Source: Ancylonema sp.
Lineage: Eukaryota
Reading direction: 5' to 3'
NCBI GenBank assembly: GCA_050230475.1
Contig: JBFLGF010000024.1
Location: 62,001 to 112,844, forward strand
DNA: 50,844 bases
Shown here: positions 18,601 to 49,594 of the stretch, in pieces
Numbering within the stretch: position 1 is the stretch's first letter
Layout of the letters: each line of letters opens with the position of its first letter
Position numbers and translations under genes: made by a program
Notes under the pieces: generated by a model
Database searches by the model: none
The model's input: the letters and a program-made list of their open reading frames with translations, nothing else
What the model was told of the DNA's origin: nothing

Positions 18601-21600
18601 TCATGCCAACCCCACTTTCTTAACAATTTGCACCACGTCCTCGTCCTCCAACTCATGCTCCTACAAACGCACTCGGTAGCAAGTGTAAGGAACTCACATG
18701 GGAGGGAGTCGATGACTAGGCTAGGACGTTTAAATCTTTGCACAAAAGCCAACCACCCAAGTTCTTGCTCTATGCATGCACTCCCACCCACGAGGCCGCG
18801 AACAAAAAATGCAAGAGTAGATGACTTGTGAATCCAACATTTATGAATTCCATTTTCCTTGTCAAATGCGAGTGATTGGATCCCTAGAGCACCACTCTAG
18901 TCCTAAAGTTTCTTAATTGTAAACCAATTTGTAGTTCGAAAGTAAAGATTTCTGATTCGCTGTTTGAAACTTGCACTCGGTTAATTGTTGTATCGTTATC
19001 GTAATTTTGAAGCTTCAAGGGGCTCAAGTCCCTCCAATGCCATGACATATCCGACACTCTCCAAAGGGTTTGTAGACTCACCTTCCCCACCCTTTGGGGT
19101 TTATGCTTTGCACTTGAACCCCACACCAGCGCACTGCCACCCACCCCCCAACCCCACCCGAACTCGTTACCCCACCCCCTCCCACACTCTCTCCCTCAAA
19201 AAGGTGGTCCAGACCCCTGCTCACTATTTGAACTGTTTCGCCATGTCCTTATGAATCCGCGTGCAATAGTCCTCCACGCTCCTCCTATTGGCCGAGCAGA
19301 TGACGGGGTCCTCGTAGTCCGGATTACACCCCCTCGGTTTGGTGTACACCCGGATTAGGTTCAAATACTCCCACACCTTCTCCAGCAGCCCGTCCAGATT
19401 CCACTCCAGGTGCGCGCTCACGGGGCAGTAGTGGGGTAAGCGGTCCAACACCTGCAGCTCCTCCAGCGAAATCTGGTCGATTTTGTTGACGGCGTACACG
19501 CAGGGGATGTACATTCGACTGCCCTCGATGACGTCGATCAGGTCGTCCACGGTGGCGTCGTACCGCAGGCTGACGTCGGCGTTATGGATCTTGTACTCGG
19601 AGCAGATGGCTTTCACGGTTTCCAAGTCAAGGTTGGTGACGGTGCAGGTGGAGGTGAGGGAGACGCCGCCCTTGTCTTTGCGGCGGAACGTCAGGTTTGG
19701 GGGCTCCTTGTTTAGTCTGGGCAAAGGGGGGGAGCACGGCATTTTTTTGGTCCATTCATTGCTCTCGGATGTCCCTATGTCTCTTTGAGCACTCTGACAC
19801 AGCCCCCTGTAATCTCCTCAGATCTGAAGTGTCATCTAGATGCCCCCCCCTGCTTCACTATCAGCACTCCAGCACAGCCAATGACACATAAACTTATGGA
19901 GGGACTTGTTGATATTAATGTACTTACTACTTACTACTTACTACTTACTACTTACTACTTACTACTTACTACTTACTACTTATTTCGCAGGCACTTTTCA
20001 TGGTCCCATGCACAATTGTGTCCCTCCACCTGATTCCGAACCCCTCCAGCTCCTTCTCTATCAGTCTCTTGTGCGTGATTGGTTTGATGGCGTCAAGCAC
20101 AATCACAATGCAGTTGCACGTACGTGCTGTTGAAATCACCTGAAGGCATCCATCCCCCACAGAAGACTCAACCTATGAATAACTGGTCCCCCCCCCCCTC
20201 TGTGCTGCCCACGTGGCACTCCATCCCCCTGCCACCTGCCTAGCCCCTACCCTTCTGACCCCTACCCATAGGATTATCGACTGTGACTCCCATTTTTTCT
20301 GGTCCCCACAGGTAAGAGGTGAAGCCTACATGTTTCTTCAGATGTTTTGTGTGCCTTTCAATTTATGTTGGTCCTCATCCCGAACCCACCCTGTTTCCTC
20401 TACAGTACACTGATATTGATCTGCACATGTCTCCTTGGTGCCTGTATGCCAGATAAAGTTGATAGCTATTGATTTCTGCTAAGCTTTTCTTGCAAAGCGA
20501 GGATTTGCTGACATGCCTACGTCCACCCTTGTTGCGTCAGTAGCACTTGTTTCGCCCTCGCGTTTCCTTCCTCTTTCTTGATTTCTTGACATATCCCTTT
20601 GGTTTTCAAATGGTCGTGATATTTCACCATAGTATGTCTCAGACCTTCAATCGTGTCCCACGACTGCCAACAAAAAAAGGGCAAGGTCATGAAGCCTCTT
20701 TTTCTTTCATACTCATCAAGGATGGAACAATATAGCCCCTGCATTCTTCAACCCTACACCCGACACCTAGATTCGAACTCCACACCCCACCCTTCCAAAC
20801 TCAAACTGCTTCTACGACCGTTTGTTTTATCATAAAATTTTGTTTCATTTCATGTCTTGTCCTCTCCCCCGACCCCGGTCCTCACCTGCCACCCTCTCCC
20901 CTTCCCGTCCTTGGCCCCCTCAATGATTCCGGGCAGGTCTAACAACTGCACAGGAGCAGAACACACCCAATAAATAACCACATAAGGTTATTGTTTAAAC
21001 CCCTGGACTATCCAAAAAACAATAGAAAAAACAGAAACCCTAAAAAAGGAATCGGTAAAAGCCCCTGCTGCTATGATGCCTTATGATAATAATACACCTG
21101 TCCAAGGTCGACCACAAAACCCTAGCCAAATTATCCCACCAATTTGATTCCCCACCCTACCTGAATCTTTGCACCTCTATAACGGATGACTCCAGGAATA
21201 CAAGTCAAGGTGGTGAATTCGTATGAAGCCACCTGGAGACACCCCAGCATCGAAATCAAGCCAACTCACCACCTAGTAGCACATGCTTGCCACCTGGCAG
21301 CTGTGTCTCCGTTTACCCGGAACCTATTTCTGGGAAAAAAATTCTGCGCAAATTATTCTTCTTTTGACTGTTCCCAGGTGGCAAGACAACACAACAGAGT
21401 CATAAACTCAAACCCGCCCCGCTCTTACAGTACGTGTGCAACCTCAATTACTATTTGCCAACCCTTCCCAGCTCGTACAAAAGACCGTTTACAACTCATA
21501 CACGTGAGACCAAATTTCAGAACCTAAATCGCAGCGACCAATAGTAGGTCCATCATGAGAGTCTCCATCCACACCAACCTCGGAAAAAGTGCCCGTTAAT

Positions 21601-22577
21601 TTATTCAGCAGAGTGGACTTGCCGACAGAGGGAAATCCCACAAGACCCACGCGGGAATCCCCGCTTTTCGTCTCATCAAAACCCTCGCCAGCACCCCCCG
21701 CCTTGCCTCCGCTGGGGGGAGCGAGAATTTCTCGCCTTAATGTGGCTAGTTTGGCCTGCAAACAGGTGTTCGAGTTCAGGATTAGGGTTTCTTAGGGTTC
21801 AGGGATTGCCAAAGGGTCAAGGTGTGACATGGACTCCGCACAAAGCAATAATGACTCAAAAAGTTTCTTCATAGGGTGAAGCTTCAATGGATGTCAAAAA
21901 ACGAGCTAAATTGTCTCCATCTACCCGCAAACCAGACCTCTATCTAGGCAGAAACTAGTTATAGGTTATTAGTAACTAGTAATTGGTACCCAATATTTAA
22001 TGTTCATAACTCTGCTGCTGTTATTTTCGTCCACATCACAGCAGTCTTGTCAAACAGTTACCACTGAGGTTTATCAGGTAAAGAGCCCTCAGGCTCTCGA
22101 GCTTACGTGTGCGACGTATGTCCCTCTCTCCCCATGTCAGTCAGCAATGCCAAACCGAGTAATTGGACCTAGTCATTCAAAGGTGATGTGGTGTTACCTT
22201 TAGTGGTCCCAAGTGATGCGACGTGGCTTTATTTTTTTGCGTCTTCGCCATCTGTTCAAAGCATGCAACACAGCGCGAGGCAGAATACTTGAATTAACTC
22301 TTGGTAGAAGCGAGCTTTTTTATTGCAAAATTGCAATTCCTAAAAATATATAATTTCTTTGCCAATATTCTGCCTATAACATGGTACTCGAGTGAATTAC
22401 AGAGTATTGAACAACCTCGTTATCAGGGGTACGAATATAAATGACATATGGCAATCCTATATTATCTCGAAGAATAGCCCAAGCAGGATATATACATATC
22501 GAAGATTTTATTTCTTACGTATTAAAGTGACATACCTCGTCCTCGACATCTTTGATTTTCTGCATTATTGTCGCCAT
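18601..22577 (-). CDS. DRG1: Developmentally regulated GTP-binding protein (DRG1/Rbg1 type, OBG family); exons 22536-22577, 22198-22251, 21579-21755, 21161-21232, 20886-20945, 20030-20139, 19225-19716, 19082-19133, 18601-18660
   Basis: [30 protein letters not shown]1 [12 protein letters not shown]2 YEFTTLT, G3 DLPGIIEG, G4 NKID, and TGS domain RVYTKP...[34 protein letters not shown]. All splice junctions are GT-AG and frame-consistent. Confidence 0.95.
19921..19981 (+). repeat. (TACTTAC)n heptamer tandem repeat in a DRG intron
   Basis: About 8.5 consecutive copies, directly visible. Confidence 0.95.
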
Positions 22578-24515: not shown

Positions 24516-25175
24516 TAGAGTGGGGGTTAACCCTTAACCCCGATAACCCTTAACCCTTAATCTCGAGGTTAATAGCCTCATTTAACCCTCCTCCCCGAAA
24601 TAGGGTTAAAACCTCGAGGGTATTGGTTAACCCTGATTTAACCCGATAACCCTAAAATTATCAGGTTTAATCAGGGTTAATCAGGGTTAATCACGGTAAG
24701 TCAGGGTTAAAAAGGGTTAGTCAGGGTTATTGAAGGGCTAATTTTGCCGCCGCCGCCGCCGGCGGGACGGGTACTTCCGGGTACAGATAAGCTGGTCTAT
24801 ATTGCGGCTATTAATAACCTGTCTAAATTTATAAAAAATATTCCACCCGAGCTTCCGTCCGATAATTTGGGTGAATTATTAACCTCTCTAAATAAATAAC
24901 CTGTTGTAATTAATAAACTGCCCGATTTTTTTTTCTGTTTCGATTCCGTCATATTTATTTTGACAGATATTTCAGGGTTAATGACCCTAGGGTTAATCAG
25001 GGTTAAGCAGGGTTATCGGGGTTATTCAGGATATTCAGGGTTAATTAGGGTTAATTAGGGTTAATCAGGGTTAATCAGGTTTTTTCAGGGTTAAAAGGAT
25101 TTATCAGGGTTAAAAGGGGTTTTTTCAGGGTTACGACTTAACCCTGAAAATAATTTCAGGGTTACCCCCACTCTA
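24516..25175. mobile_element. hAT-like MITE with telomere-like subterminal repeats
   Basis: TIRs TAGAGTGGGGGT(T)AACCC, perfect 8-bp TSD GCAGTAGT (24508-24515 and 25176-25183), and arrays of T(C/T)AGGGTTAA and TTAACCC. Confidence 0.92.
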
Positions 25176-28800: not shown

Positions 28801-29677
28801 CGTTCCCTATCTGCTAATAGCACACCCATTCCATTCTTGTACCTGCTATTGCAAGAGCAGAAACTTGATCCAGATGCCCCTCATACACGCTCACCAGCTG
28901 AGTACAGGGCTCAGATAAAGCAGGAGGGCATCCCCCTGCGTCCCTCGTAGCATCTTGTCCACTGCTGGATCCGGATTCGAGGGATAACCGGGTGACAGGT
29001 AACCTGTCTGGCGATAGAGAACCTGGTCCCGAGTGGTTGGGATTGGGCAGGTCGATGTCAGCATCATCTTCCGAGTGTTTTATGCTACCTACCGCGAAAG
29101 CAGATTCGGTTTCGGAGGTAGAGCAATCTTTTGGAGCCAATCTAGGCAGTGGCGGAGGAGGTGACGTGGATGTCGAGGGCACGCAGGTGCCAAAGGGGGA
29201 TGGCTGTTTTCCAGTGTCTGAATCCGGTTCATCCGCATTGTGATGTATCCCGTCCTGGTTCACCGACAGAGAAAACTGAGGCCTCTGTGGGCGAGTCGGA
29301 TTCGTGAGTGAAGGCTGCCCTTTGAGTACCTCCACAAGGCGCATCAGCTCGATGTTCTTTGGGAGGCTCTGCGCACCTGCGCCTGTGAGGCGCGTGCGCG
29401 CACTGCATTCGGGGCATCGAATCAGAACGAGTTTTGATATACTCGGGGGATCGGAGGATTGTGACTGCCCACTTCCACTAGTTCTGGAGCTTGTCACGGG
29501 CAGAGCGCCCATTATCGTCCCAGATGGCACAGCGGTAGCTGGGGTCTGTGTGGAAATCAAGGAGCAGATGCAACCCTCACAAAGACTGTGACCGCAGTTG
29601 AGGACGCGTGGATAATGGAAAGTTTCTTCGAAGGGACAGAGGCAAACTATGCATTCAGGAAGAAGGTATCCCGTCAT
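25836..29677 (-). CDS. RING-finger plus WD40-repeat protein (At1g21651-like); exons about 28843-29677, 28314-28388, 27547-27900, 26661-27020, 26318-26430, 26037-26195, 25836-25856
   Basis: PECIVCLCPFEETFHYPRVLNCGHSLCEGC...IRCPECSART...LPKNIELMRL, followed by WD repeats GHLDQVSALAIA|GNYLCSASFDKTICLWS, YTGGGDRVVKGWS, GHSAPVSAL..LYSGGWDG, VYSGGWDSNIQ and AHKGAVLSM..LYTGGADAKIK|VW. Internal exon edges are approximate. Confidence 0.85.
26555..26655 (+). repeat. (CCCCCTTCCT)n pyrimidine minisatellite in an intron
   Basis: Directly visible tandem 10-mer. Confidence 0.85.
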
Positions 29678-30747
29678 AGCGGATGTAATTGATAATGGAT
29701 GTTTCACAAAAAATATATAAATTCGATCTTCCTCGATGTCCACCTCGCCTTCATCAACAATGACTTATGGAACGAGCAGGTCGTACAGCACAGATTTTTC
29801 GTTTACATTTTTCAGAACCCGGCTCGTCATCAATGTCTGGACATTGAATGAAATTGAATGACTGGTGTTTGTCGCACGCACCCTCCCGGATATACATAGA
29901 AGCCTAGGACAAAGAACCAAGAATATTGTCCCCTTCTGCGAAAGAAATGGCGAAACATCGGCAGTACAACTATATCACGGCAAGGAGGCCACAGAGGGCT
30001 CATTCTCCATACCTACTTTGTGGGGAAAACCCTGGTGACCCGTATGGACAAGGAGCGGTTCCCACATTTTTCGCGAGGAAGTGGTTTTCTTCCGCGGTCT
30101 TCAGATTCCTGCGAGATTCAGTCAGAAGTTGGGCAGCCCAGCGCCCAGCGCCCAGCGCCCAGCGCCTAGCGGTATCCGGCGGTTCGGACTCAGGGCGGGA
30201 TGGGGAAATTTAATAATCCAACCCCCTAATTAATGAACACTTAATTAGGTGGTTGTGGTTGTAGTTTTGAGTCAACACTAACCGGTTAAAACCGGATAAC
30301 GGCGGTAGCCGTTTCGGTGTTCCTTTCCTGCAGTCGGTGCTTCAGGTGTACGGCCTTTTTACTTCAGGTGTTTTCTTCCGTACATGTAGAGATACGCACG
30401 AGCCAAGCGAATCTCGATTATATCTCGCACACAACATTTCCGATCACGGGCAGCAATCAACTTCCAGGGCTCAAATATTCTCACTTGCCTTTCTTCCTGA
30501 CAGCAGGGAAGCGCTTGACCGTCATACAATTGGCATGCCTGGTCGCAGAGAGCATATAACGGCAACAGAGAACGACAGCTGAACGCCTCCATGCCATTCT
30601 GTTCCGAGAATCACTGAGGTACAGAAAGGGCCGGGGTGTTGACACGATTCTGTTAGAGGTATGGGTAGCACCAAGTGAACAAGGAACTGGCAATAGCTCG
30701 TTGGGCGTACGAACAGGACGACCACTTCGTTTTCCTGCTGTGTCGGT

Positions 30748-35021: not shown

Positions 35022-38000
35022 GAGAGACCGCCAGCTGGCGCGGCGGGGGCCAATGGGGGCTCGTCGAATGGGGGGAATGTGGAAGTGCCGCCTGAGCAAA
35101 AGCCGCAGAGAAGCCTGACGTTGTAAAGGACTGGCGTTGGAATCGTGTTGTAAATGATTTATTGATTGGGTCACGGGGTATGGCGTAGAATCTGTAGGCA
35201 GGCGAATCTTCACATGGTCCTGCCTGGGAGCCTCAGGTAGGTAGGTAGGTAGGTAGGAGCAGGTTTGTTGGCTAGGGTAGGTAGGTAGCTAGGTTGCACT
35301 GAGGGGCTGGGGGCAACAAATGAGGGGGAAACGAGGAGAGGAGATTGCAACCAAATAGAATGGCAGAGGGGGATCCACAACGGCGTCAGGGGAGAGAGGG
35401 GGGGGGCAGGCAGGCTGTGGCGTTTCATGCAAGATCAGCCCCAAGTAGACCACCTGAGAGGAGGAGGGGTGGTAAAAAAACAGGTGTGACTGGTGGGACA
35501 GCACAGAGGGGTTGTGGTGGGCATCCTCCTCATGAGGGCCACAGCTCGAGTGGTGTTGTGTGTGCGGGGGTGGGGGGGGGAGAGAGGAAGTCAAACACCA
35601 TGGCTGCAAGTGTGCCTTTTTGGACTGCCCTCTCCCAAGCCACTGAGGGGCATCCAATGATGCGGTGCCACAGGAGATGAGTGCACAGCAGCGTCCTAGT
35701 AGCGGATCCGGCATGTGGGCAGGTAGGATGGGGAGGAAGGACCAGGGTGTCATGGTGGGTGTGTTACGGCGAGAGTAGTGGGAGGACAGGTAGGCTTGTG
35801 CCTTGGGGGAGGTGTGAGCGAGGAGGACTGAGGTTTTGAAGTCCCTTGATTGGGGTATGGCAAATGACGAGCTTAGCAAAAGCATGATGTACTGGAGAGG
35901 TGGAGGGGCAAAGTTTTTATTTAATTCACACGCCCTTGAAGACAAGAAACAAGAGATATAGAGAGTCTGGCACAACATTCGAGAACTGCGCTTTTGTGCA
36001 TGGTGGTGACTGGACTTGTTTTTGGTGGTTGCAGTGGGGGAGCACCTCAGTAGGGGTGTACCGGAAAGAGGGGTGGAGGAGGAGTAAATGGAAGGAGATG
36101 CCTCTTTGCTCGCCAGGTGAGGACTACGAGAAGTACGCACAGTGTGGTTGGATGGTGCAACTGGTGTGCCATGTTCTGATTCAAGGGGATGTGGGGAGTG
36201 GGGGAATCTGGTGGAAGACGGAGGGAGACTACAAGATGATACACGGAATTTGGTCGCGAAGCAGTGATCAGAGTTGTTTATTTGTATATGGCGTTGTGAA
36301 ACATGTCTCTGTTTGAGGTATGAGGTCTTAAATTGAAGCTAGTCAACGAGGAATTTGGAACGGTCACATAAGGGTTGTAATGTAGGACAAATGGTGCATA
36401 CCCGGGTGTTAAAAGAAGTAAATGTTGATGATGAGGGGGGGAAATGTATGCCTTGTCTAGTTCTAACTGCTTTTGTGCTTGCTAACAAGAGATGGTGTAA
36501 GGGTTGCAGATGAGCACAATAATGGTTTACCTCCCTCTTGCTCTTGCGATTTGGACACCATATGAAAGCATTGCGACTGGGAAATCGCCACTTGCATATG
36601 TTTGAAGGTACGAATCTACTTGGTAAATTCCACTTGCGTTGAAAAGCAAAACAAAATTGAGCAATGCGCGAGACCTTGCTTTCGATACCTTAGTAAAATC
36701 GTTGGAAACATCAGATTACATATGGAGGTATCAATCTCTAACACTCATGAATATTACGTAATTAATATCGTTTTTCTATAAAATTGCAACTAAATACAAA
36801 TCAAAGACACTCGTTGGCACGAGGAAAAATTAATACCTCGTTTCTACCTCTTATCCAATCAACAAAGATTTAATCTTACCATTATGAGTCTATGTGCTTG
36901 AATCGATTTGGTTATTGTCGTTATGGTGACGTCCGTTTCGACGCCATTCACATAAAGTTGTTGCATGCCTATCACAAGGGCATGCATAGGAGCATACATC
37001 GCCTTTGACATAGGCAACTACACATGAGGATGAAAAGGGTATAAAAAAAATTGGTATGCTTTGTGGATGCGCGGATTAACAATAGACGGCCGAGGAGTCG
37101 AAGTCTTCTATAATGCTGCAACGCTCGTGACTTACAATTGACACACATTGAATGTGAGAGTATTTGAACTGCGTTCAGATTATCGGAGAATTATGTTACA
37201 ATCACACCACATAATCTGAATCAAGCAAACACACAAGGTCATCTCTAGCCTTGTGATAGTAGTCTATGATAAGAAAAAAACAATTTCTAAAATACCGGAT
37301 CATGAGCGATCGCTTGCAAAGACCTTGTGGGGTTTCGAGGGAAGACTCATCGATACGTCGAAGACAAGTATTGTTCCTTCTATAAAATGAGAAACATTTT
37401 TTTTAAAATATAAATTAAAGAAAATGGTTGACCCAATCTGAGATGCTTTATTTGAGTATTTAATCGTCGGACCAAAGACAAAATAACACGACGAGAAATT
37501 GTTATGCTAGGATACGCCGTGTCAAATATATGCAACACTGGTTGCAATGACATCTGTATCGGCCACAAGACACTGACCAAAAAGGAAACTAGATAGCTGG
37601 TGTATTTCACTGTATATCTAACATCTCACGTATGCCACACTGCTTGGAAACTACACTAAATACTCGTCAATCTTGCAAGCTCGTTAAAGACTTCGATGCT
37701 CAAAATATATTACACATAGCCAGCACCACCAACATCGCAGACATTTCTTCATCGCGAAACGTCTCACCTTAACTTCACGTGAATGTCAACGCACACTACC
37801 GGAGAAAGAACTTGCCTCAAAAAAAATGTTGAAGATGAAATCTTTGTCATGTCCTTGATTCCCTGAACTTTCACTAGAAGAGATAGATTCGAACCTTGAT
37901 GTAGGATAGCAAAGGGACGTTTCCCATGTGAGGGTTGAGTATTTAGAGCCTGCATCAGATTTCAGATCGAATATGAGTATAATTTGGAATGATCAATGTT

Positions 38001-38389
38001 TACATTCTCCCTCTCCCTCTTGAACCGTGGATGTATTTCGCTAAATTCGTAGTTGTTCAACTTTCCTACCATACATTGAAATATAAGCCCAATATATTAT
38101 TATATTCTTACTACGAGTTCACACCTCTCCTATATTGTTGTCCAATCCATGTTGAAGTTGAAGAATATGTAATTACATGCACGAGCCGTTACCTCGATTT
38201 ATGAATATTTTCACTGCTCGCTGAAGGGTCCAAACATTCAGAATTGAACTCATTGGAGAAGTCAACATGATATCTAAGAAGAACGTTGACCTTTGAAGGC
38301 ACATGTGATCTTTCCATCTGATAAATTGACCACCGATAAGTAGTACGTCAACAACTTCAAATCCGATATAGGACGAGCAACTTTTCGAT

Positions 38390-41300
38390 GCTCGGTTTCG
38401 ACGACGACTTGAAACTGCATGTAGCGCAGGCTGAAGAAGGAGGTGATGAGCATGCCGACGAAGATGACGTTCACGGGGGGCCACGGGAAACGGCAGCTCG
38501 TTCTTCGAGCAACCTCTCAACTCGATCCACGTCCCTACCTTTGTCTGCACCCTGGTGTCGACGTCATGCCTCGTCAAAAGAGGTGGGCTGAGCTTCTTAC
38601 AGGTGCCCACGGGTCCTGAATTGAAGAAGGGGAATGTGAAATGGGCGGATGTAGTTGAACAACCTAGTGGTCTCACTTTGCTAGCCGCTACCATCATCAT
38701 GCCTGGGTCTCACAATACCACAGCAAACTTATCCACAGGCATGATCTGGCATTACAAACTGGGTCACCCCGGTGCTGATGTAATGTCAGACTTTTTCAGA
38801 CGTGGGGACATCCCTAAGTTAAGTTCAGAGGACTTAGTTGAAGTCAAGGGTTTTCAGGTTTACTGTCAGGGGAAGATGCAACAGTTGAGTCACGACAAGA
38901 ACAGCGAAGATCTAGGGACATGCCCCAAGATGGGACGCATTCACTTGGACCTCTTTCTGTTAAGCCTGCTAATGGAGGTTTCACATATGCACAGACAAGG
39001 ATTGAGGTGTCCACACGTCAGTCATTTGTCAGTCTATTGAAAACAAAGGATGAAGCACTGGACCGAGCAAAGGTCACTATACAGTTGCTCGAGGTACAGT
39101 CAGGAATACCACTACAGTCTATCAGGACAGACAAGGGTGGGGAGTATGTGTCTCAGGATTGGATGAACTACTGTGGGGGGAAGGGTATTGATATACAAAC
39201 CACAGATGCGTACAGCCCTGAGCAAAATGGCATATGTGAGAGGCTGAATAGGAATTTGACAGAAAAGATGCGTTGTATACTAATTTGGTCAGGTCTACCG
39301 AAGTCTTATTGGGATGTCGCACTCTTGCATGCAAATTGGTTAAGAAACAAAACCCCAACTAAGTCGCTCGCTGGCAAAATACCCATAGAAGTCTGGGAGG
39401 GAAAGAAGCTGGAAATGAACAAAAGTCATAACTTTGGGTGTCTGGTGCATTACTTAAAAGTGGGGGCGGACAAGAACAGGCAAGGGGACAAGTTTGCCCC
39501 TCGCACTTGCTTTAGTGTGTTTTTGGGGATGACTGCGGGGAGTGCAGGCTACAACGTGTTCGACCCTCATAGGGCGGGGGTGATAGCGCGCACGGACGTG
39601 CGGTTCTTCTAGGAGGTGCCGGGGTACCCGAACTGATGGGGGGGAGAGCTCCCGAGGTTGAGGCCAACGCAGAGAAACACTTCTTCTATCTGTTCCCCGA
39701 CACCGACGATGAGCCCCCAGCAGCAGTTGTGCCAGCAGCAGCAGTTTCCCCAGCCATGCCAGCAATCCTGCCCGCAGTGCCAGCACCAGCAATTCCAGCA
39801 GCTCCCGCGCCAGCAGCTGCCAACAACCCCGCGCACGTACACCTCCAGCCACAAGCTGCTGAGGTCCCCATCGATGCGATTGAGTTGTTTGACAGCGAGT
39901 CGGGGATCAACAATGCAGGAGGTGGAGATGAAGGGGAGGAGGAGGTGCAAGGAGGGGGTGCAAACCCAGGAGTGGGGGAGCCAGGCAGCATAGCTGAGCG
40001 GGTCATGGCTAGGCGGAGGGCCAACTTTGCGCAGTATGGGGACATTCTGTGATGCGATGGGGAGGAGTTCGACGACGACGCTCATGCCAGTTATTCAGCA
40101 ACCGAGTGGGAGCCCAGTTGTTTCTTTACTGGCTTCAACGGTCCTGTGGATCCTGGCTACGCTTGCGTCGCATCGTCCAACAACTCCTCCGAGCCGCTCA
40201 CCCTCAACCATGCCATGAGGAGACCAGACTGGGACCAGTGGGACAGAGCCATCATCGAAGAGCTTGCTGCCCTGGAGACGTTCAACACCTTCGAGGTGTG
40301 TGTCCTTCCTCCAGGTAAAAAGGTTGTGGGATGTTGCTATGTTTTTAAGGTCAAAATCACATTTAAGGGGGATATTCAAAGATATAAAGTCAGACTGGTC
40401 GCACAAGGATTCTTACAGCGAAAAGGGATTGACTATAATGAAGTATTTGCACCAGTTATTGACAGTACATCTATCACCCTATTCTTCGCTATAGCAAACC
40501 ACTTTGACTGGGAACTGGAACAGATGGACGTAATCACAGCGTTCCTGTATGGACGTCTGGAATAAGAAGTATATATGAAAATACCACCGCGTATGTATAT
40601 TGAGGGGGGTGTTGAGGGCAAGGTCTTGCGACTGAAGGGTGCTTTGTACGGACTGAAACAGAGTAGCCACGTCTGGCAGGAAATGTTTAGGAAATTCATG
40701 CTTGCTCAAGGGTTCAAACAGTGTGTCATGGATACTTGCATCTACATGAGGGGGGAGGGAAATAACAGAATCATACTAGGCATTCATGTTGATGATCAGG
40801 TCATAACAGGTCCTAACGCCATGGTGGTGAAAATATTTAGGGGGGACATGGGAAAAAATTCAAGGTCAAGGATCTGGGTCCCCTAACCCATATCCTGGGG
40901 TTGGAAGTGAAAAGAGACAAATCGAGAAGACTGCTCACACTGGGACAGCCGGGCTTCTTGAGGGGGGTGCTTGAACGGTACGGAATGGACGAGTGTAATC
41001 CAACTAAACTCCCACTCGCCCCTAACACACAGTTTACGCAAGATGATGAACCAAACCTTCTCCCTACCCCTGAAGAAATAGCAGGCTTTCGAGGAAAAGT
41101 GGGATCTCTCATTTACGCCATGAAACAAACCAGACTGGACATCGCATATGCACTAGGGGTACTCGCTAAACACATGAGTAATCCTGGGGTCGCACACATA
41201 AGGGCTTTGCATCAACTGATATTCAGATACTTGAAAGGGACTGTCAACCACGGACTGACGTTTGTGGGAGAAGACAACTTTGAAGTCAAGGGTTACTGCG

Positions 41301-41728
41301 ATGCATCTTGGAACAACTGCAGCATGACAGGAAAGTCAGTCACTGGATGGGTCACCACGGTTGGGGGGACAGCACTTTGGAAGTCACAGAAACAGTCCAC
41401 CGTTGCACAGAGCACTGCTGAGGCTGAATACATCGCTCCCTGTAGTGTATCTAAGGAATGCTGTTATCCAAAGTCTCTCTTGAAAGAACTCAAGTTTCCC
41501 AACCAAATCACTATCCACACTGATTCCACAGCAGCCCTCTCCATGATCCAGAACCCCGTGCAAAGGCAGAAAGCAAAACATTTTAACGTCGTGTACCACT
41601 GGGTCCGGGAATGCCACAGCACTGGGCTGAAGAATGTGTACCTTGCAGGGGCAAATCAACCAGCAGATATGCTAACCAAGGCTCTCCCACAGGTTCTACT
41701 GGACAGACACAGCAAATGTCTAGGTTGA
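38390..41728 (+). mobile_element. Degenerate Ty1/copia retrotransposon pol (GAG-pre-integrase, integrase, RT, RNase H); 5' part and LTRs not identified
   Basis: WHYKLGHPG, IRTDKGGEY, PEQNGICERLNR, YKVRLVAQGF, MDVITAFLYG, ALYGLKQS, HVDD, YCDASW, STAEAEYIA and QPADMLTK, in INT-RT-RH order. Stops (39610, 40050, 40563) and frameshifts are present. Confidence 0.95.
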
Positions 41729-44119
41729 ACTGGGAGTGTCAGTCTTTTCTTTTATTTTATTCTGGGAGGTTTCAAATGCCATGTTGGCAGGGGGTGTGCA
41801 TGTTGTTGGGAGGGGGTGTGTTTTGTGTTTTCTTCATGCAGAAGTACACTTGGGGAGGGCACAACAACTTCAGCCCATCCAAAGTCACACTCTTGCCTTA
41901 ACACCTCCTAAAAACACTTAAGGACAGATCAGAAAGTGCAGATCTGCTCAGGTTTAAAGTTGTCAGTTTGTTCTGAATTTCGGAATTTATATTTCCATAA
42001 ATGTTGCAAAACTTGTGTCAAAATTTGGTGCTGATCGGTTCGGCAGTTTTGAATTTATGCTATTTTTAAATTTCTTCACTGTACAGTGAAAAAGTGAAAA
42101 GTTGAAAAAGTGAAAAAGACAAAAGTATTTTTTCTTAAGTTTTTGTTTTTCGCCTAACTTGTGGCATTTGTTTGTTTGTTCAGGGCTTCGGCCCGAAAAA
42201 CGACTAAGGTGCTGGAGCGCTCGGCTGCAAGACTTCCTATCGGCTGAGTTTTTTAGATAGCCCCCCCTAGCACGCTTGTATGCTAGGGAAGACCACAATA
42301 CTTCATATGCAATGGTTCCGCCATGATTTAGCCGTAACTAGGGTAGTCCCTTGGATGTCCACATCTATTCCAACTTTAGCATGGAATACGAGGGGGTGTG
42401 TAGGAATATTGGATAGCCATGCCTTATGCTTGCTAGTCCAGTTGTGACCGGTTACTCTAATAACCGGGCGCCATATTCCTAGATGTGCTTATATGCGGGG
42501 CCGGGCACGATTGTGTCCGGGCACCTGATCTGTTGTCAGCTTGATGTCGACACCTAGAGTCGTTAATAGCGGTTGGCATGCTTGACGGTGTTTTGATTGG
42601 TTTGATCTAGTCATGTCAGGAGTGTCCGGCATGTGCCGTTGATACATAGATGAGTTGTCACTCAAGGATAGGCCGACGGTCAATTGTACCGACCGTCGGC
42701 ATACAACGATCTGTAAAGCGCATCGGGTATTACCATCCCCGAAGCGATCACAATAATTAATTCGTTCCACACACGCAACTCTTGTCTTCGTTGATCATCA
42801 GTGATAGAGATCCTTTGCGTACGGTTCGTTTTGTCGCCCACCAAATCTCCTGCACGTCCTAATCGCTCACTTAATGTTCCTTCTTCCGCTCGTCAGTTTA
42901 TAGTAGATTCGTGTAGGTTGAATCCCTACTGACCACTCAATAATGTAATTCAAGCACGGTATGTGACTTATCAACGAAGTTTGCCGTAGCTACTACTCGC
43001 CGAAAGCTGAGATGCACTCAACGCTTAGTGGTGGGAGGTCTAGAAACAACACTCTGGTTAATCAGGCGTTGCAGGTTACAGCACTTCACAACAGGTGACA
43101 GCTACTGATAAAAAGAACGCAAGGCCAATAGCTATAGAGTTTCTACAAGGGTGCAAAATGAAGGATAGTTGGTTGCGACGGGGTGCGCACTCACTATTGG
43201 TTTCGAGAATCAAACTTTGTCGTGAATAAAACGATTCACTAGATCTGGAACGGGTGCAAGCATCAAAGGGCGAATTGTCTGACTGAGCGTGCACGAAACG
43301 GTGCAGCTAATAGTAACGATTTCTAACGTCAGCAAAACGGCTGACAATCAACGACTTGCAAGGGTCACGAATTTTGCAAGGGTAACGATAATTCTGACTA
43401 CGGCAGAATTTCACACGATGCGTATGCGAAACGGCACACGACTTTTTGTACTACTTGAGATGCGACCAGCACGCACAAGCAAAACAAGCAATTTTCGAAA
43501 AACTTACGGCTGGATGGAGCGACGCGAAGTTTGCATAAATTCATAGAGAATATCAAACGCGAAATGGCACACTTGATAACGATTGTTGACGATTGCATGC
43601 AGAATACATGAATTTACAGAGATTGCAAAGATAGCGATTGCAAAGAGGTGTTGAAATTCAGACAGCGTAAAGTGACAGCGGAAGTTGGCAGTTCAGAAAA
43701 CGACTTAGGCTTTCGTACAAATCGACGCGCCGTTTCACACGCGCGTGATCTAGATCTTATCTGCGATCTATGGTCGAAAAAAAATATCGACTAGACAGCT
43801 GATCGTGACGGTCTATTCTAGAGTTCCAGATTTAACACGTGCAGCGGTTCAAACGCCAGGCTGGCTGACTGAGATAAAGCTTGGCGCGCACTCGTCGATA
43901 CGACAAAATACTCCGAATTAAAATCTAAAAACTGGTACACCGACTTTTATAGATTGACTGAGTATAAATTTTTTATCAAATAAAACGTCTGACTGATCGA
44001 AACTCATATAGCGACAGAGTTCGATATAACGACTAAAAATCGACAATTACCAAAATTTCTATTTTTCAAGCGGATCAACAATTAAAAAGACGTTACTTTC
44101 TAACGATCTCTAGCGGCAT

Positions 44120-47100
44120 GATATTACAGATCCATGTAGTCAACACTTTCATTACCGCGTCGACTAGCATAAACAAGGTACACACCGTGCCTTAATTCCA
44201 GTCAAATACACCTTGCCACACGCGGAATCGTGACACTGTCAGTACATGGACGAAGGCGTTACTTACACTTCTACTGACACATTCATGCAAATTCCGAACG
44301 AGGATCTGTTACATTCAACAGAAGAAGCCGAAATTTTGACAGAATTTGAGTTTCGTATCATGGAAGAAGGTGTATACCACGAACCACAAAATTTTCCGGA
44401 TGGACCCATCGACAATGAGTACCAACCTCAGATGCAGGAATGGGAAACCAATACCATGGTTTACCTTGCTACAACCAAACATACAAACATTCGTCAAGCG
44501 CATCGACCACAACTTAATGCGGCAGCCAGAACAATGGCACAAGTAAATGAGCACCATGCAGTCAACAGACGTACAACCTTGCGTATCAACAGCGCACAGT
44601 ATTTACGCAAGGCCATCGACAAAATACAAAACCAGCCATTACCACAATGGAACGCATGGAAAGGTATACCGATTCGCGATGCTGTACCAATTGATCCATC
44701 TTATACATCACGCTTACAACCCAAGGCGCTGCAAGATGGTCTACACATTTGGGAACCATTTGGTGGCATGAGTTGCAGTGGCGCCATCATGCACCTTGAG
44801 GCTGGAAACAACATTGATACATATACCCACAGTGACATTGACCGAGATGCACGTGACATCACTCGTGCCACATTACCCAAACTTCAAGTTCGATACCCAA
44901 GACAATTGCCAACCAGTGCAATCAAAGGTTTCGATACTCGACTTTCTCATGATATTTCCAAAATATCAAACGAAATTCTGTATGAACTGATCCTACAACG
45001 AGGACCTATTGACTTCATCTTCGCGGGATGGGACTGTCAGATGGTCAGCAAATCCGGACAAGGCAAAGGCTACTATGATCGACAATTTCCATACTTCTTT
45101 GACCTCATCCGAGCCATCAACCATCTCATCAGAGTCCAAAAATACCCACCAGTATTTATCTTGGAAAACACATATCCATTTGGAGATCTGGTGAAGGAAA
45201 GTCGGGATACAACGACACTCATCAAGTCCTTTCTGGGCTTTCCAGCAGTTTCCGACGCATACAGTTTCGGTAGCACAGCCCACCGTGTTCGATGAATTTG
45301 GAAAAACTGGATATCACCAGATGTATTGGAACTGGCTATTCTTGACACCCCGGAATTACCACCATTGTCAACCATTCTTGAACCACATCATCGACCTAAG
45401 AAGGTACTCAAAGATGATGAACCACCATTCACCCCGGTTAACAAAACCGGAGAACTACGTTGTGCACTACTGATACTTGTTTTATACTCAGGTAGTTACC
45501 AATTTAAGTTTCAAGGGTACAATCAACCAGGCCCCGGAATGCTTTACAACACGGAAAAACATGACTACGAGGAAGCGAATGTCTGGGAACGTGAGCGACT
45601 CATGGGTTTTGACAATGGAGATACATGTGCACCCAGCATTTCGGAGAACACTCGGAAAGCAATGATGGGACGCACGATGGATCGCAACATGGCTAAATGG
45701 TTGGGAGGCATTCTTATGGCTATACATGCACTTCCGTCTTACAGCCTCGCATATGGTACACACCCAACCTTACCAACCAAGAAAAGTGGGGGGGGCAACT
45801 ACTCTATTGCTCCATTATACCACACACTTCGTTACGACTCTGGGACTAATGAATTTTACAATAATAAGAATCACTAGCATGACACTTCATATGAGCAACG
45901 CCAACTCGCTCAGGATGCAATTCCTATCACTCAAGCACTATTGAGTGAAACCGATTACCAATCAACAATTGTCACTGATGACAACGTGATTCCATCCAAC
46001 CCAGATTCACAACCAAAAACTGAGGTGAAACCCATTACATGGAAAATTGGCAACAAACTTACGGAGGAACAAAAACTTCAAGTTATTGACCTTCTAGAGG
46101 AAAACCGCGATTTCTTTGCATTTTCTCTCGAAGAGTTACTTCCATCAAACAATACTCCTATGGAAAATTATGTTGCAAACAGCTCAACCAATTTTTCAAA
46201 ACTCCCATCGTCTTTCTGACACCGAATGGAGTTTTGTTCGAGAAACCTGTCAAAAACTCTTAGAACTAGGCATGAATCGCAAAAGTGACAGTAATAATTA
46301 CGCCTCGGCAACCGTCGTGGTACGAAAGAAGGACGAGAATGGACAACCAACGGACTTTCGCCAATGTGGTGATTATATAGACCTATCAACAACCACACCC
46401 AACAAGACAAGTATCAGCTTCCAAGAATTGAGGACATCTTTCAAGACATGAAAGAAGAAATCTTTACCAAATTGGATTTACGACAAGGATACCACCAGAT
46501 CCCTATCTCTGAAACGGACAAATGCAAGACTGCATGTTGGGGAGCTGACCGTCAACTTTATGAATGGAATGTCGTACCATATGGAATAAAGAATGCACCA
46601 CCATTCTTACAACGTACCATGGACCGAATTTTGGCAAGACTCCGCAACTCGCGATGCTACATTGATGACATCAGCAACTGGAGCAATACTTCCGAGGACC
46701 ACCTCCAACACCTTCGACAAGTCTTTCATCGCCCTCGGTAGTTCAAATTGAAATGTCATCCAGGTAAGTGTTTATTCTTTGCAGATGAAATCGATTTTTT
46801 AGGCCATAAGATTTCTGGGAAAGGTATTGCACCACAAGATGAGAAGACCAGAGCCATTAAGGATATGCCGACACCTAAGGATATTCATCAACTTCGTGCT
46901 GCTCTAGGGTTGTTTTCCTATTACCGTAAGTTCGTTCCACACTTCTCCACGATTGCTTCTCCACTCAACGGACTTCTAAAAGGGGATGTCAAATGGCATT
47001 GGGATGAGACTCAAGAAACAGCCTTTATCACACTCAAACAAGCCCTTTGTTCAGAGCCAGTGCTCCGCAGACCAAATACCAATAAACCATACTTGCTAGC

Positions 47101-48855
47101 CACCGACTGGAGTGCACATGGTTAAGGTGCCGTTTTGAGTCAGACAGATGATGATGGTACCGAATATGCAGTCGCATTTGCTAGTCGCAACAATGCGGAA
47201 CGGAATTACAGCAGCTTCCACTGGGAGTGTCTTGTTGTAATTTGGGCAGTGCAATATTTTCGTCAATTTCTGATTTTGTTTGGTAAACCATTTACCCTCA
47301 TTACCGATCATGCACCCCTCAAATGGATCATGACAACAACCAAACTCATCGGCAAACTTGCGCGTTTGGTTCTTCTACTCCAAGAGTATGAATTTGAAGT
47401 GATTCATCGCCCCGGTGTTGCAAACTCCAATGCCGACGGGTGCACTCGTTGTCCACTACCAAAGACAGCCACTGACAACCATGAGATTGAAACATTTGGG
47501 GAGAAAACACCTTGCTACTACATGCAAACTTCACCCACGGGTCAAAGTCCACCATCATACATTCTGAGTTTTCACCAAGGTACACCACCACCAGAAGATG
47601 TCAAAGTGGACATTTGGGATGATAATGCCACAATGACAGTCCTCAAAATTCATGCATACTTACCAAACTTGAGACCACAACAAAGAGACCGTACATACCG
47701 ACGGGCTCTCAAATACACATGGATGGGGAAATATGTTTACAAAATCCCTACCTCTGGTCAGATGAAAATCGTTCCACTACCACCAGAACGAATTCCTCTG
47801 ATCAATACCATGCACACACGATACGGTCATTTTGGGGTTAAACGCGTGCTCCACGCTTTACAACATGATTACTGGTGGCATGGGATGGGTGTTCATGTCA
47901 TTCAAGTCATCAACGAATGTCCAGCATGTTCTCGAGCAAAAACAAACTTTGTTGATTGACGTACTCAACTACAACCATTACCAATTCGGGGACTCTTCTA
48001 ACGATTGGGAGATGACTTCGCTGGACCTATGCCAGAAAGTACACGTAAAAACCAATACGTTATGATCTGCATTGAACATTTCACCAAATGGGTTGAACTT
48101 ATCGCCTTACCTGACAACTCTTCAAAATCAGCAGCACATGCGTTACTCACTCATGTCCTTTCTCGTTTTGGAGCCCCTGGTGAAATCATCACCGACCAAG
48201 GCGCGGAATTTGAAGGGGCATTCACCGACTTACTTGTCGGACATCGAGTTACAACATCGTTACTGCAGCCCGGGAACACCCACCATCTGATGGGTTAGCA
48301 GAACGCATGGTTCAAACGATGAAACTATCTTTAAGGAAAATCCTCCTAAAAGAACATCGCACGGATTGGGACATTTACTTACCTTATGTCGCCATGGGAT
48401 ACCGCATGACAAAACAGGCCTCCACCGGGTATTCGCCATACTATTTGCTGTATGGAAGACATCCTATCCTCCACGCACAAATACAGGCAGCTGAACATGA
48501 CCCCTTACCTGAGGCACTCAAAGCATTACCAAAATTCATTCAAGAACGCACTAAACTATTTGAAGAGGTTATGCCTCTCGCAATGCGCAACCTTGACATT
48601 GCACAACAACGAGACAAGCATCAATACTTTCGTGTCCACAGTGGCGCATGGGCCCGACCTCGTCCTAGACTCCTCAAACATCAATATGTTTATGTGAAAC
48701 GTCAAACCAAAGGCACACTTGACATCAAAACACATCAACAAATCCTCCGGATTACACAAATCCGACGATCTGGAAATGTACAGTTACAGGGCAAAGATGA
48801 ACGCCGCATCTGAAACAGATGATAAACATTTCACCCTGCAGCCTCTCCATCAAAC
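44120..48855 (+). mobile_element. Degenerate Ty3/gypsy-type LTR retrotransposon pol: DNMT, RT, RNase H, integrase
   Basis: RT motifs YASATVVVRKK, KLDLRQGYHQI, PYGIKNAP, YIDD, KC..FLGH. RNase H motifs ATDWS, AERNYSS..ECL..IWAV, TDHAPL, NADG. Integrase zinc finger H..YGHFG...CPAC and core DFAGP, IEHFTKW, TDQGAEF, GLAERMV. Order is RT-RH-INT, with several stops and frameshifts. Gag and LTRs were not found. Confidence 0.93.
44246..45720 (+). pseudogene. C5 cytosine DNA methyltransferase domain embedded in the Ty3/gypsy pol
   Basis: Motif I WEPFGG, II HSDID, III HDISKI, IV IDFIFAGWDCQMVS, VI FILENT, VIII AHRVR*IWKNW, IX ERERLMGF and X MGRTMD, in canonical order. A single in-frame TGA at 45293 interrupts it. 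Confidence 0.88.
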
Positions 48856-49594
48856 ATGACTAGACAAAATCTCCTCGCTCAATCCATGCGGAAGTTGCTT
48901 GAAGATGGCACATTCACCGATGTGATTGTTGAAACGAAGGGGAGCGGAAATGTCAAGGCGCACCGACTTGTCTTGGTAATATATTTGAATGACAAATCGA
49001 ACATGAATCTCCATTGCGATTAGTAATTTGATTAGTTTATGTATGTTGTCATATCCATGTTGCTTAATATCAGGTTCAAGGCTCAACGCAATTTTTATTG
49101 TTCATGCGCATTCTTGCGGAGTGCGATGTCGCCTGTGTTTCAAAAAATATTTGACGAAAACATGATGGAATCGCGAACAAAGGTGGTCATCATCGATGAT
49201 TTTCCTAGGCCAGCGGTCGAGGCGTTGGTGGATTATTTCTATCACCAGAAACTGACGACACATGTTCTTGACAAGTACTCCGCGGATATGTGGGGCCCTC
49301 GGTGACAAATACCAAGTGGAATCTCTTCAAAAATACATCTTAGCAGTCCTACCGGAAATTGTGACGGTCGAGAATGTCATAGATCTGATTTCGCGTGCCG
49401 ATGAACTTAGCGCAATGGATATTAAGGACTATTGTTTGAAGTACATGCTATTGCACGCGGAAACCATCCCCGACCAAGAAGAAAAACTAAAATCACGTCC
49501 TTATCATTTGTACAAGGAGTTCTTTTGGCTATTGGTCCGGTGTCCAAAAATCTATTTTGATTCTCGTTATAGCAAGATTTTTTTTGAAATTTAA
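48856..49594 (+). pseudogene. BTB/POZ-BACK (SPOP-like) protein pseudogene; exon 1 48856-48975, exon 2 49120-49594
   Basis: LLEDGTFTDVIVETKGSGNVKAHRLVL|SAMSPVFQKIFDENMMES..VIIDDF..AVEALVDYFY..(MW)ALGDKYQVESLQKY..VTVENVIDL..A....DIKDYCLKY. There is a GT donor at 48976, the acceptor reads CGG instead of CAG at 49117-49119, and a +1 frameshift lies in the G-run near 49292. Confidence 0.85.

What the first reader, a model, noticed from the sequence alone, without database searches (positions are those of the whole stretch)
44246..48855. Ty3/gypsy retrotransposon carrying its own cytosine DNA methyltransferase in frame with RT
Seen in the sequence: ORFs 44246, 45326 and 45941 share one reading frame, separated only by single stops (TGA 45293, TAG 45875). 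A complete C5-MTase motif set (I-X) therefore runs straight into the RT N-terminus (WKIGNKLTEEQK...FAFSLEEL), followed by RNase H and integrase. A possible protease C-terminal remnant (HFHYRVD*HKQG..ALIPV) sits at about 44120-44230. Established knowledge: DNMT-bearing retrotransposons have been described in Symbiodinium and the charophyte Klebsormidium (de Mendoza et al. 2018), so the concept is not new, but they are rare and their function is unresolved. Inference: the element may methylate its own cDNA or insertion sites to mimic or manipulate host chromatin, and this may be an undescribed family or host lineage.
Basis: partly seen in the sequence, partly recalled or inferred. Interest (0 to 1): 0.88.

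Follow-up and report, generated by a model that had tools for sequence, protein, structure and literature searches.

The report
Algal retrotransposon carrying DNMT3-type methyltransferase
This is a broken copy of an abundant jumping gene, likely from a conjugating green alga, whose replication protein has a built-in DNA cytosine methyltransferase that would likely methylate the element's own new copies; the kind was described in one other alga, and database relatives show it is widespread in green algae in two layouts.

Summary
Observation confirmed. One reading frame runs from a DNMT3-type C5-methyltransferase (Pfam PF00145 above cut-off; predicted fold closest to DNMT3A) into gypsy RT, RNase H and integrase. 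It is not chance: contigs of other copies cover the methyltransferase as deeply as RT, one bridges the two, and an intact 2,138-aa relative aligns colinearly over 1,199 columns. This copy is dead: 8 in-frame stops, frameshifts, gag and most of the protease lost behind a likely copia LTR, and no 3' end. The host is likely a zygnematophyte (DRG tree). The closest known element is KnitGypsy-Dnmt3 of Klebsormidium (2018), so the concept is known. What is added: 766 related protein clusters; two layouts, protease-DNMT-RT (window, Closterium, Mesostigma) and RNaseH-DNMT-integrase (80 of the top 150, plus Monoraphidium), split the same way in DNMT and RT trees; and catalytic Cys/Glu/Arg kept while motif IV mostly reads EC, not PC. 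Self-methylation of cDNA is inferred and untested; no extra CpG loss is seen. This scan noted similar elements before on other DNA (moss elements; a protease-DNMT-RT branch).

The parts
42399..44118 (+). Likely 3' LTR (TG...CA, behind a purine tract 42390-42398) of the upstream copia element; it cuts the gypsy copy inside its protease
   Evidence: Sequence. Depth falls from 583,359 to 72,755 at ~44137, and 44 contigs run on unlike the window behind 44121. Joints 48141->42411 and 44120->46434 in other contigs. No second copy in the window, so the LTR call is inferred.
44119..44233 (+). Probable C-terminal remnant of the aspartic protease (stops at 44165 and 44231)
   Evidence: Best but non-significant hit of a profile of 10 relatives' proteases, E 0.39. 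Same position as in intact relatives P0279, P0282, P0280.
44234..44713 (+). Linker between protease and methyltransferase, in frame
   Evidence: Its C-terminal part aligns with P0123 and P0133; bridged to motif I by other copies' contigs (record 9; record 3).
44714..45754 (+). DNMT3-type C5 cytosine methyltransferase domain, motifs I-X in unpermuted order, broken by TGA at 45293
   Evidence: Pfam PF00145. Profile vs PDB best DNMT3A, E 1.5e-20. Model pLDDT 90. Foldseek best DNMT3A, E 4.5e-18. Residue tally.
45755..46027 (+). Linker to RT with TAG at 45875
   Evidence: A diverged copy's 1,036-nt contig spans 45662-46250 (record 6).
46028..46741 (+). Gypsy reverse transcriptase (YIDD 46658-46669), frameshifted ~46168-46376, stop 46739
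   Evidence: RVT_1 E 4.6e-20.
46742..47440 (+). RT thumb/connection and RNase H, stop 47123
   Evidence: RT_RNaseH E 1.5e-23, RT_RNaseH_2.
47600..48850 (+). Integrase: H2C2 zinc finger, core and C-terminal part; stops 47957 and 47999, frameshift ~48260; the element ends here with no PHD or 3' repeat
   Evidence: Integrase_H2C2 E 2.6e-13, rve E 1.9e-9. C-terminal NISPCSL resembles relatives' NCAPCHL. Depth drop to background.
48857..49594 (+). Neighbouring low-copy host BTB/POZ gene, abutting the truncated 3' end; not part of the element
   Evidence: BTB E 1.7e-7; depth ~190-250; frames.
38468..41728 (+). Neighbouring decayed copia pol (integrase, RT, RNase H) without its 5' half
   Evidence: gag_pre-integrs, rve, SH3_retrovirus; RVT_2.

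Best explanation
This is a dead, doubly truncated copy of an abundant Ty3/gypsy family whose Pol carries a DNMT3-type cytosine methyltransferase just before RT, in a host that is likely a zygnematophyte alga, and in intact copies the domain would likely methylate the element's own cDNA before integration. Shown: domain identity and fold, in-frame order, family membership of the domain, decay of this copy, and two layouts among relatives. Inferred: the missing gag and protease (from intact relatives) and the host class (one gene tree). Inferred from general retroelement biology (recalled): Pol is packaged with the RNA, so the methyltransferase is present when cDNA is made and acts in cis with SAM. 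Inferred by analogy with SymbioDIRS-Dnmt3: the target is likely CG. Speculative: the gain is that new insertions arrive looking like ordinary CG-methylated host DNA. I put the identity at about 0.95 and the cis cDNA-methylation mechanism at about 0.5.
For: Pfam hit above cut-off. DNMT3A is the best sequence-profile and structure match, ahead of DRM2 and M.HhaI. Colinear with intact P0279 (zinc knuckle-protease-DNMT-RT-RNase H-integrase) at 33% over 1,199 columns. X1 summed contig depth is 62,817-105,146 over the DNMT, 63,137-96,928 over RT-integrase and 186-251 on the BTB flank. Among the top 150 relatives, of rows with a residue in the column, catalytic Cys is kept in 137 of 140, motif VI Glu in 140 of 143, and motif VIII Arg in 140 of 141 and 136 of 140, at about 30% overall identity. 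The window's RT groups with protease-DNMT-RT elements, support 100. The DRG tree puts the host with Closterium, Mesotaenium and Spirogloea, 98/98. PMC5890265 showed de novo CG methylation by SymbioDIRS-Dnmt3 domains in yeast.
Against: No activity was tested here, and the KnitGypsy-Dnmt3 domain gave no methylation in yeast, which the authors call inconclusive. Motif IV Pro is replaced by Glu in 85 of 140 rows, with Pro in 40; the effect is unknown. This copy shows no extra CpG loss: CpG o/e is 0.80 against 0.53 for the neighbouring copia pol and 0.79 for the window, and only 1 of 16 listed window-private C>T/G>A changes lies in CG (one copy, partial list). Summed contig depth is not a copy number (tool caveat). 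The host tree had no named Klebsormidium, Chara or Coleochaete row.
Confidence: 0.6

Rival explanations
1. The domain is active but works on host chromatin around the insertion or in trans, or damps the element's own activity, rather than marking cDNA.
For: Layout A puts the DNMT next to integrase and a PHD finger, which suggests chromatin-site action. No CpG footprint in this copy. PMC5890265 lists such options.
Against: In the window's layout it sits between protease and RT, away from integrase, and intact P0279 and P0282 show no PHD hit. Co-translation with RT favours cis action (the authors' argument in the peer-review file).
Confidence: 0.2
2. The domain is kept for a non-DNA-methylating role: DNA or RNA binding, RNA methylation, or antiviral defence.
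For: EC in place of PC in most rows. The Knit domain was inactive in yeast. An antiviral role is speculated in PMC6338049 (passages).
Against: All covalent-catalysis residues are near-invariant. The fold and best matches are DNA enzymes, with DNMT2 far lower.
Confidence: 0.15
3. The copy is really intact, and its stops and frameshifts are assembly errors.
For: The adjacent BTB gene also has a frameshift near 49295, and the host DRG gene has two odd residues at conserved sites. At several sites no contig of X1 carries the window's letter.
Against: 99 differences at >=70% share in 2,351 nt against about 0-1% substitutions on the low-copy flank (table 8). Of 35 listed in-frame rows, 6 are silent, 27 change the residue and 2 fall in stops, as neutral decay predicts. 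Both ends are missing regardless of errors.
Confidence: 0.04
4. Chance juxtaposition of a host DNMT fragment and a gypsy pol.
For: None found; one contig skips 44567-45393.
Against: No introns, same frame, even family depth, a bridging contig, intact colinear relatives in Closterium and metagenomes.
Confidence: 0.01

Closest known systems
KnitGypsy-Dnmt3 of Klebsormidium nitens (de Mendoza et al. 2018, PMC5890265; read parts 1-5 of 7 of the text and passages of the peer-review file; figures and the main supplement not readable)
   Same: Gypsy Pol with an intronless, unpermuted Dnmt3-related domain in the same ORF as RT and RNase H; catalytic residues kept; streptophyte alga host.
   Different: The host is likely Zygnematophyceae. 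The family looks far more abundant (depth a few hundred times the flank, against 33 DNMT genes in all of K. nitens). The position of the DNMT in the Knit Pol is given only in a figure I could not see, so I cannot say which layout it has. Its DIRS-like repeat arrangement cannot be tested on this truncated copy.
SymbioDIRS-Dnmt3 and SymbioLINE-Dnmt of Symbiodinium (PMC5890265)
   Same: Retroelement-borne C5 methyltransferase. The DIRS type is Dnmt3-like, shares an ORF with RT, and also occurs in two domain orders.
   Different: Tyrosine-recombinase or LINE elements in dinoflagellates; here a DDE-integrase gypsy in a green alga.
EpiLTRs of Euglena gracilis and Cymbomonas tetramitiformis (bioRxiv 10.64898/2026.05.21.726589; passages)
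   Same: Ty3/gypsy-like LTR elements with a cytosine methyltransferase in pol.
   Different: Their DNMT is sister to DNMT4 and comes with DAM and a chromodomain. The preprint calls it distinct from streptophyte Gypsy-DNMT3. No DAM or chromodomain is seen in the surviving part here.
Unannotated database relatives: Closterium CAI5973665.1, CAI7855100.1, CAI7886383.1, GJP34393.1, CAI7911866.1; Mesostigma Mv19666; Monoraphidium MNEG_11595
   Same: Same DNMT lineage. The Closterium proteins share the protease-DNMT and/or DNMT-RT order, and Mesostigma shows protease-DNMT.
   Different: About 30% identity. The window's DNMT forms its own clade with five metagenome fragments (100/99). Monoraphidium has the RNase H-DNMT-integrase-PHD layout.

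Membership tests
Ty3/gypsy LTR retrotransposon | Pol order RT - RNase H - integrase with gypsy-type domains | tested here: met
   RVT_1, RT_RNaseH, Integrase_H2C2, rve in that order.
Ty3/gypsy LTR retrotransposon | gag and aspartic protease upstream | tested here: inconclusive
   Only a non-significant 38-codon protease remnant; no gag found in 41700-44400 and no Pfam hit in 36300-38500. Intact relatives have both.
Ty3/gypsy LTR retrotransposon | Own terminal repeats, PBS and PPT | tested here: inconclusive
   Both ends are lost; no repeat pair was found. The LTR-like 42399-44118 follows the copia's purine tract.
DNMT3-type C5 methyltransferase | Motifs I-X in unpermuted order (unlike DRM) | tested here: met
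   Profile alignment to DNMT3A from motif I to X; DRM2 matches only profile positions 3-133. Fold match TM 0.67/0.80.
DNMT3-type C5 methyltransferase | Catalytic Cys, motif VI Glu, motif VIII Arg-x-Arg | tested here: met
   Cys 45035, Glu 45164, Arg 45284 and 45290 present; near-invariant in relatives.
DNMT3-type C5 methyltransferase | Pro-Cys dipeptide of motif IV (textbook feature, recalled) | tested here: not met
   The window has Asp-Cys and most other copies read Glu-Cys. Relatives: Glu 85, Pro 40 of 140 rows. It is a lineage trait, and Pro survives in part of the same lineage.
DNMT3-type C5 methyltransferase | Falls in the DNMT3 clade of a rooted DNMT phylogeny | not tested
   No host DNMT1/3/5 sequences were held. 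The assignment rests on best profile and structure matches.
DNMT3-type C5 methyltransferase | SAM-dependent de novo 5mC activity | not testable with these tools
   Needs an assay.
Gypsy-DNMT3 (KnitGypsy-Dnmt3 kind) | Intronless Dnmt3-related domain inside the gypsy Pol ORF with RT and RNase H | tested here: met
   definition from PMC5890265.
Gypsy-DNMT3 (KnitGypsy-Dnmt3 kind) | Multiple copies with a conserved DNMT under purifying selection | tested here: inconclusive
   Many copies shown and residues conserved across families, but dN/dS could not be computed because no DNA of intact copies was held.
Gypsy-DNMT3 (KnitGypsy-Dnmt3 kind) | DIRS-like arrangement of terminal repeats (Fig. 4c legend) | not testable with these tools
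   The copy is truncated, no genome is held, and locus scans found no relative.
Gypsy-DNMT3 (KnitGypsy-Dnmt3 kind) | Same domain position, and one clade with the K. nitens sequences | not testable with these tools
   None of the 30 hits looked up by name was labelled Klebsormidium, and the figure was not held.
EpiLTR | DAM plus DNMT4-sister DNMT plus chromodomain | tested here: not met
   No DAM or chromodomain hit and the DNMT is DNMT3-like. Intact relatives lack them too.

The most novel reading that the evidence does not exclude
Gypsy-DNMT3 is not a Klebsormidium curiosity but an old, very diverse green-algal retrotransposon lineage (hundreds of families, in chlorophytes and streptophytes). 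One DNMT3-like capture was moved between two slots of Pol (before RT, or before integrase) and kept catalytically intact with an unusual Glu-Cys active-site loop. This window's family reached hundreds of copies in the sister group of land plants, where it could have shaped the host methylome.
Probability: 0.4. Interest if true: 0.7.

Novelty: new member of a known kind. Interest (0 to 1): 0.45.

Why it matters
The role of transposon-borne cytosine methyltransferases has been open since 2018, and the one gypsy domain tested was inactive in yeast. This family, with its named Closterium, Mesostigma and Monoraphidium relatives, gives many intact domains to test, in two layouts and with Pro-Cys or Glu-Cys active-site loops. 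It likely places such elements, at high abundance, in the algal sister group of land plants. The window copy itself is only a fossil marker of the family.

Tried and rejected
No whole genome is held, so copies, LTRs and dN/dS could not be collected. A word-based homolog search with the N-terminal DNMT piece found none, while the full HMMER search found 766. Locus scans found no relative in metagenome contigs or viral contigs. Phage tblastn gave only 6 weak records at E 4e-3 to 8e-3, so no viral donor was seen; these scans are insensitive. Run search: no RNA holder listed, which is no evidence on expression. No language-model look-alike search was obtained. A search for gag or the rest of the protease upstream found nothing significant. 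A search for a 5' copy of the 42399-44118 repeat found none. CpG depletion as a self-methylation footprint was not seen. One search's motif tally had an offset bug and was replaced. In one search, two rows (45568, 45754) looked like gained stops only because neighbouring changes were not listed; they are counted as residue changes. Tree rows left out: 31 short or redundant rows; 44 chosen rows; rows under 200 columns and 4 near-duplicates. Paper searches listed no report of Gypsy-DNMT3 in Zygnematophyceae or of two layouts; I saw most results as listings only, and the library lacks most subscription papers. The Penium genome preprint (10.1101/835561, passages) has no occurrence of DNMT or methyltransferase. 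PMC11982613 (passages) had nothing relevant.
Full report
1. Observation. One frame runs from 44114 to 46219 with stops at 44165, 44231, 45293 and 45875. Pfam finds DNA_methylase in 44234-45292 (27.4 bits, cut-off 22), then RVT_1, RNase H, Integrase_H2C2 and rve. The RT core, RNase H and integrase core lie in the same frame as the methyltransferase except for a frameshifted stretch at about 46168-46376. The copy is dead: 8 in-frame stops, frameshifts near 46167, 46376 and 48260, and both ends missing.

2. The domain. A profile of 35 sequences (window plus 34 of the top 150 hits) ranks DNMT3A first in the PDB (E 1.5e-20), then DNMT3C and DNMT3B, DRM-type enzymes (6e-15 and weaker, profile positions 3-133 only) and M.HhaI (2e-10). 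The AlphaFold2 model has mean pLDDT 90 and pTM 0.89. Its best Foldseek match is DNMT3A with DNA (E 4.5e-18, TM 0.67/0.80). Motifs run I to X unpermuted. Among the 150 best relatives, counting rows with a residue in the column, catalytic Cys is kept in 137 of 140, motif VI Glu in 140 of 143, and the motif VIII arginines in 140 of 141 and 136 of 140. The residue before the Cys is Glu in 85, Pro in 40 and Asp in 5 of 140. The window has Asp, and nearly all contig depth from other copies reads Glu. The canonical PC motif (recalled) is therefore not the norm in this lineage.

3. Not chance. Laying four public runs (at most 3 samples, 2 studies) gave, in X1, summed contig depth of 62,817-105,146 over the DNMT, 63,137-96,928 over RT to integrase, and 186-251 on the BTB gene next door. 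X2 shows the same pattern. The tool warns this is no copy number; I read it only as 'abundant, a few hundred-fold over the flank, DNMT as common as RT'. A diverged 1,036-nt contig spans motif X to the RT start, and others span the linker into motif I. At the stops at 44165 and 45293, other copies have sense codons; the other stops were not among the 40 of 99 rows shown. An intact 2,138-aa protein (zinc knuckle, protease, DNMT, RT, RNase H, integrase) aligns colinearly at 33% over 1,199 columns.

4. Ends. Upstream, 42399-44118 begins TG behind a purine tract and ends CA. Depth steps down about 8-fold at its end, and 44 contigs continue there with mixed sequence. Other contigs join its two ends to different internal points of the gypsy family. 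It follows a copia pol (38468-41728), so I infer it is the copia's 3' LTR inserted in the gypsy protease; no 5' partner is in the window. What remains of the protease is 38 codons that give the best but non-significant profile hit (E 0.39). Downstream, homology ends near 48850, directly against a low-copy BTB gene.

5. Host. A DRG GTPase gene at 18613-21737 groups with Closterium, Mesotaenium and Spirogloea rows (98/98) and is sister to a Closterium clade (95/82), about 90% identical to Closterium (the Mesotaenium, Spirogloea and Chlorokybus labels are my reading of gene-name prefixes). No named Klebsormidium or Chara row was in the tree, so Zygnematophyceae is likely (about 0.85), not proven.

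6. Relatives. 766 clusters (50% identity) hit at E<=0.001 and 391 at 1e-10; 150 were listed. By domain order: 80 have RT/RNase H before the DNMT and/or integrase right after it, often with a C-terminal PHD (layout A). 11 have protease before it and/or RT after it (layout B, as here). 3 carry a PCIF1-like domain beside it, and 56 could not be assigned. Of 30 hits looked up, the named ones were Closterium (4) and Mesostigma (1), all layout B, plus two 'hypothetical' JGI proteins. A profile search added Monoraphidium MNEG_11595, layout A. In the DNMT tree, layout A is one side of a 100/98 branch and the window lies outside it, in a 100/99 clade with five metagenome fragments (140-row FastTree agrees). 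In the RT-RNase H tree the window joins seven other rows with support 100: five assigned to layout B and two cluster-mates of a layout-B protein. The trees are unrooted and lack DNMT-less gypsies, so one capture plus relocation versus two captures is open.

7. Mechanism. Most likely the domain travels in Pol into the particle and methylates the new cDNA in cis, probably at CG. This is inferred from conserved catalysis, co-translation with RT, and the CG activity of SymbioDIRS-Dnmt3 in yeast (PMC5890265). Against it: the Klebsormidium domain was inactive in that assay, and this copy has no extra CpG loss (o/e 0.80 vs 0.53 for the adjacent copia pol; 1 of 16 listed private transitions in CG). 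Rivals are action on flanking chromatin, or a non-catalytic or RNA role.

8. Known versus new. The kind is KnitGypsy-Dnmt3 (PMC5890265; parts 1-5 of 7 read). A 2026 preprint mentions 'streptophytes (Gypsy-DNMT3)' without detail in the passages seen. PMC6338049 lumps DAM and DCM elements across green algae and charophytes (passages). It works like the known kind and meets the testable core feature; repeat structure and clade membership could not be tested. My searches listed no report of a zygnematophyte host, the two layouts or the Glu-Cys loop. The scan's own unchecked notes record moss elements and a protease-DNMT-RT branch on other DNA; I had found the two layouts before seeing them. Verdict: real, a new member of a known kind, interest 0.45.

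Noticed in passing
Proteins P0291 (4,799 aa), P0293 (3,665 aa), P0216, P0225, P0269 (ENA): Giant non-LTR-like ORFs with the order OTU - RT - PHD - PCIF1_WW - DNMT - RNase H. They pair a PCIF1-like domain (an adenine-methyltransferase family, recalled) with a DNMT of this same lineage, which forms its own 100/100 clade. One paper search listed only an unrelated review. Possibly a third, undescribed architecture.
   Followed up: partly
P0298, Monoraphidium neglectum MNEG_11595: A chlorophyte gypsy Pol with protease-RT-RNase H-DNMT-integrase-PHD-Tudor: the Gypsy-DNMT3 lineage outside streptophytes.
   Followed up: partly
window 42399-44118: The LTR-like repeat is CpG-rich (o/e 1.35), while the copia pol it follows is CpG-poor (0.53). 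Its first ~650 bases are far deeper than the rest (up to 2.0 million vs about 0.3-0.4 million in X1), suggesting a part shared by several families.
   Followed up: partly
window 48850-49594: The integrase end abuts the apparent ATG of a BTB/POZ gene (intron from ~48977, apparent frameshift ~49295). Either a deletion removed the element's 3' end and the gene's upstream region, or it is an assembly join.
   Followed up: no
window 18613-21737 (-): Seven-exon host DRG GTPase gene; two residues differ at otherwise conserved sites (near 21680 and 20890), either errors or decay.
   Followed up: partly
P0267: Copia-type gag (Retrotran_gag_2) joined to a DNMT identical to P0262's and nested among Closterium layout-B rows; probably a chimeric gene model from nested elements.
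   Followed up: no
P0145, P0152: Some layout-A polyproteins also carry a G-patch between the DNMT and the integrase.
   Followed up: no
window 5981-7819 (-): 612-codon ORF with a weak RVT_1 hit just under cut-off, a non-LTR-type element.
   Followed up: no
window 24624-25133: Two arrays of a 10-bp ATCAGGGTTA-like unit with short inverted repeats, telomere-like or a transposon subterminal repeat.
   Followed up: no
window 28814-29764 (-): RING-finger protein exon followed by what looks like the start of a WD40 repeat.
   Followed up: no
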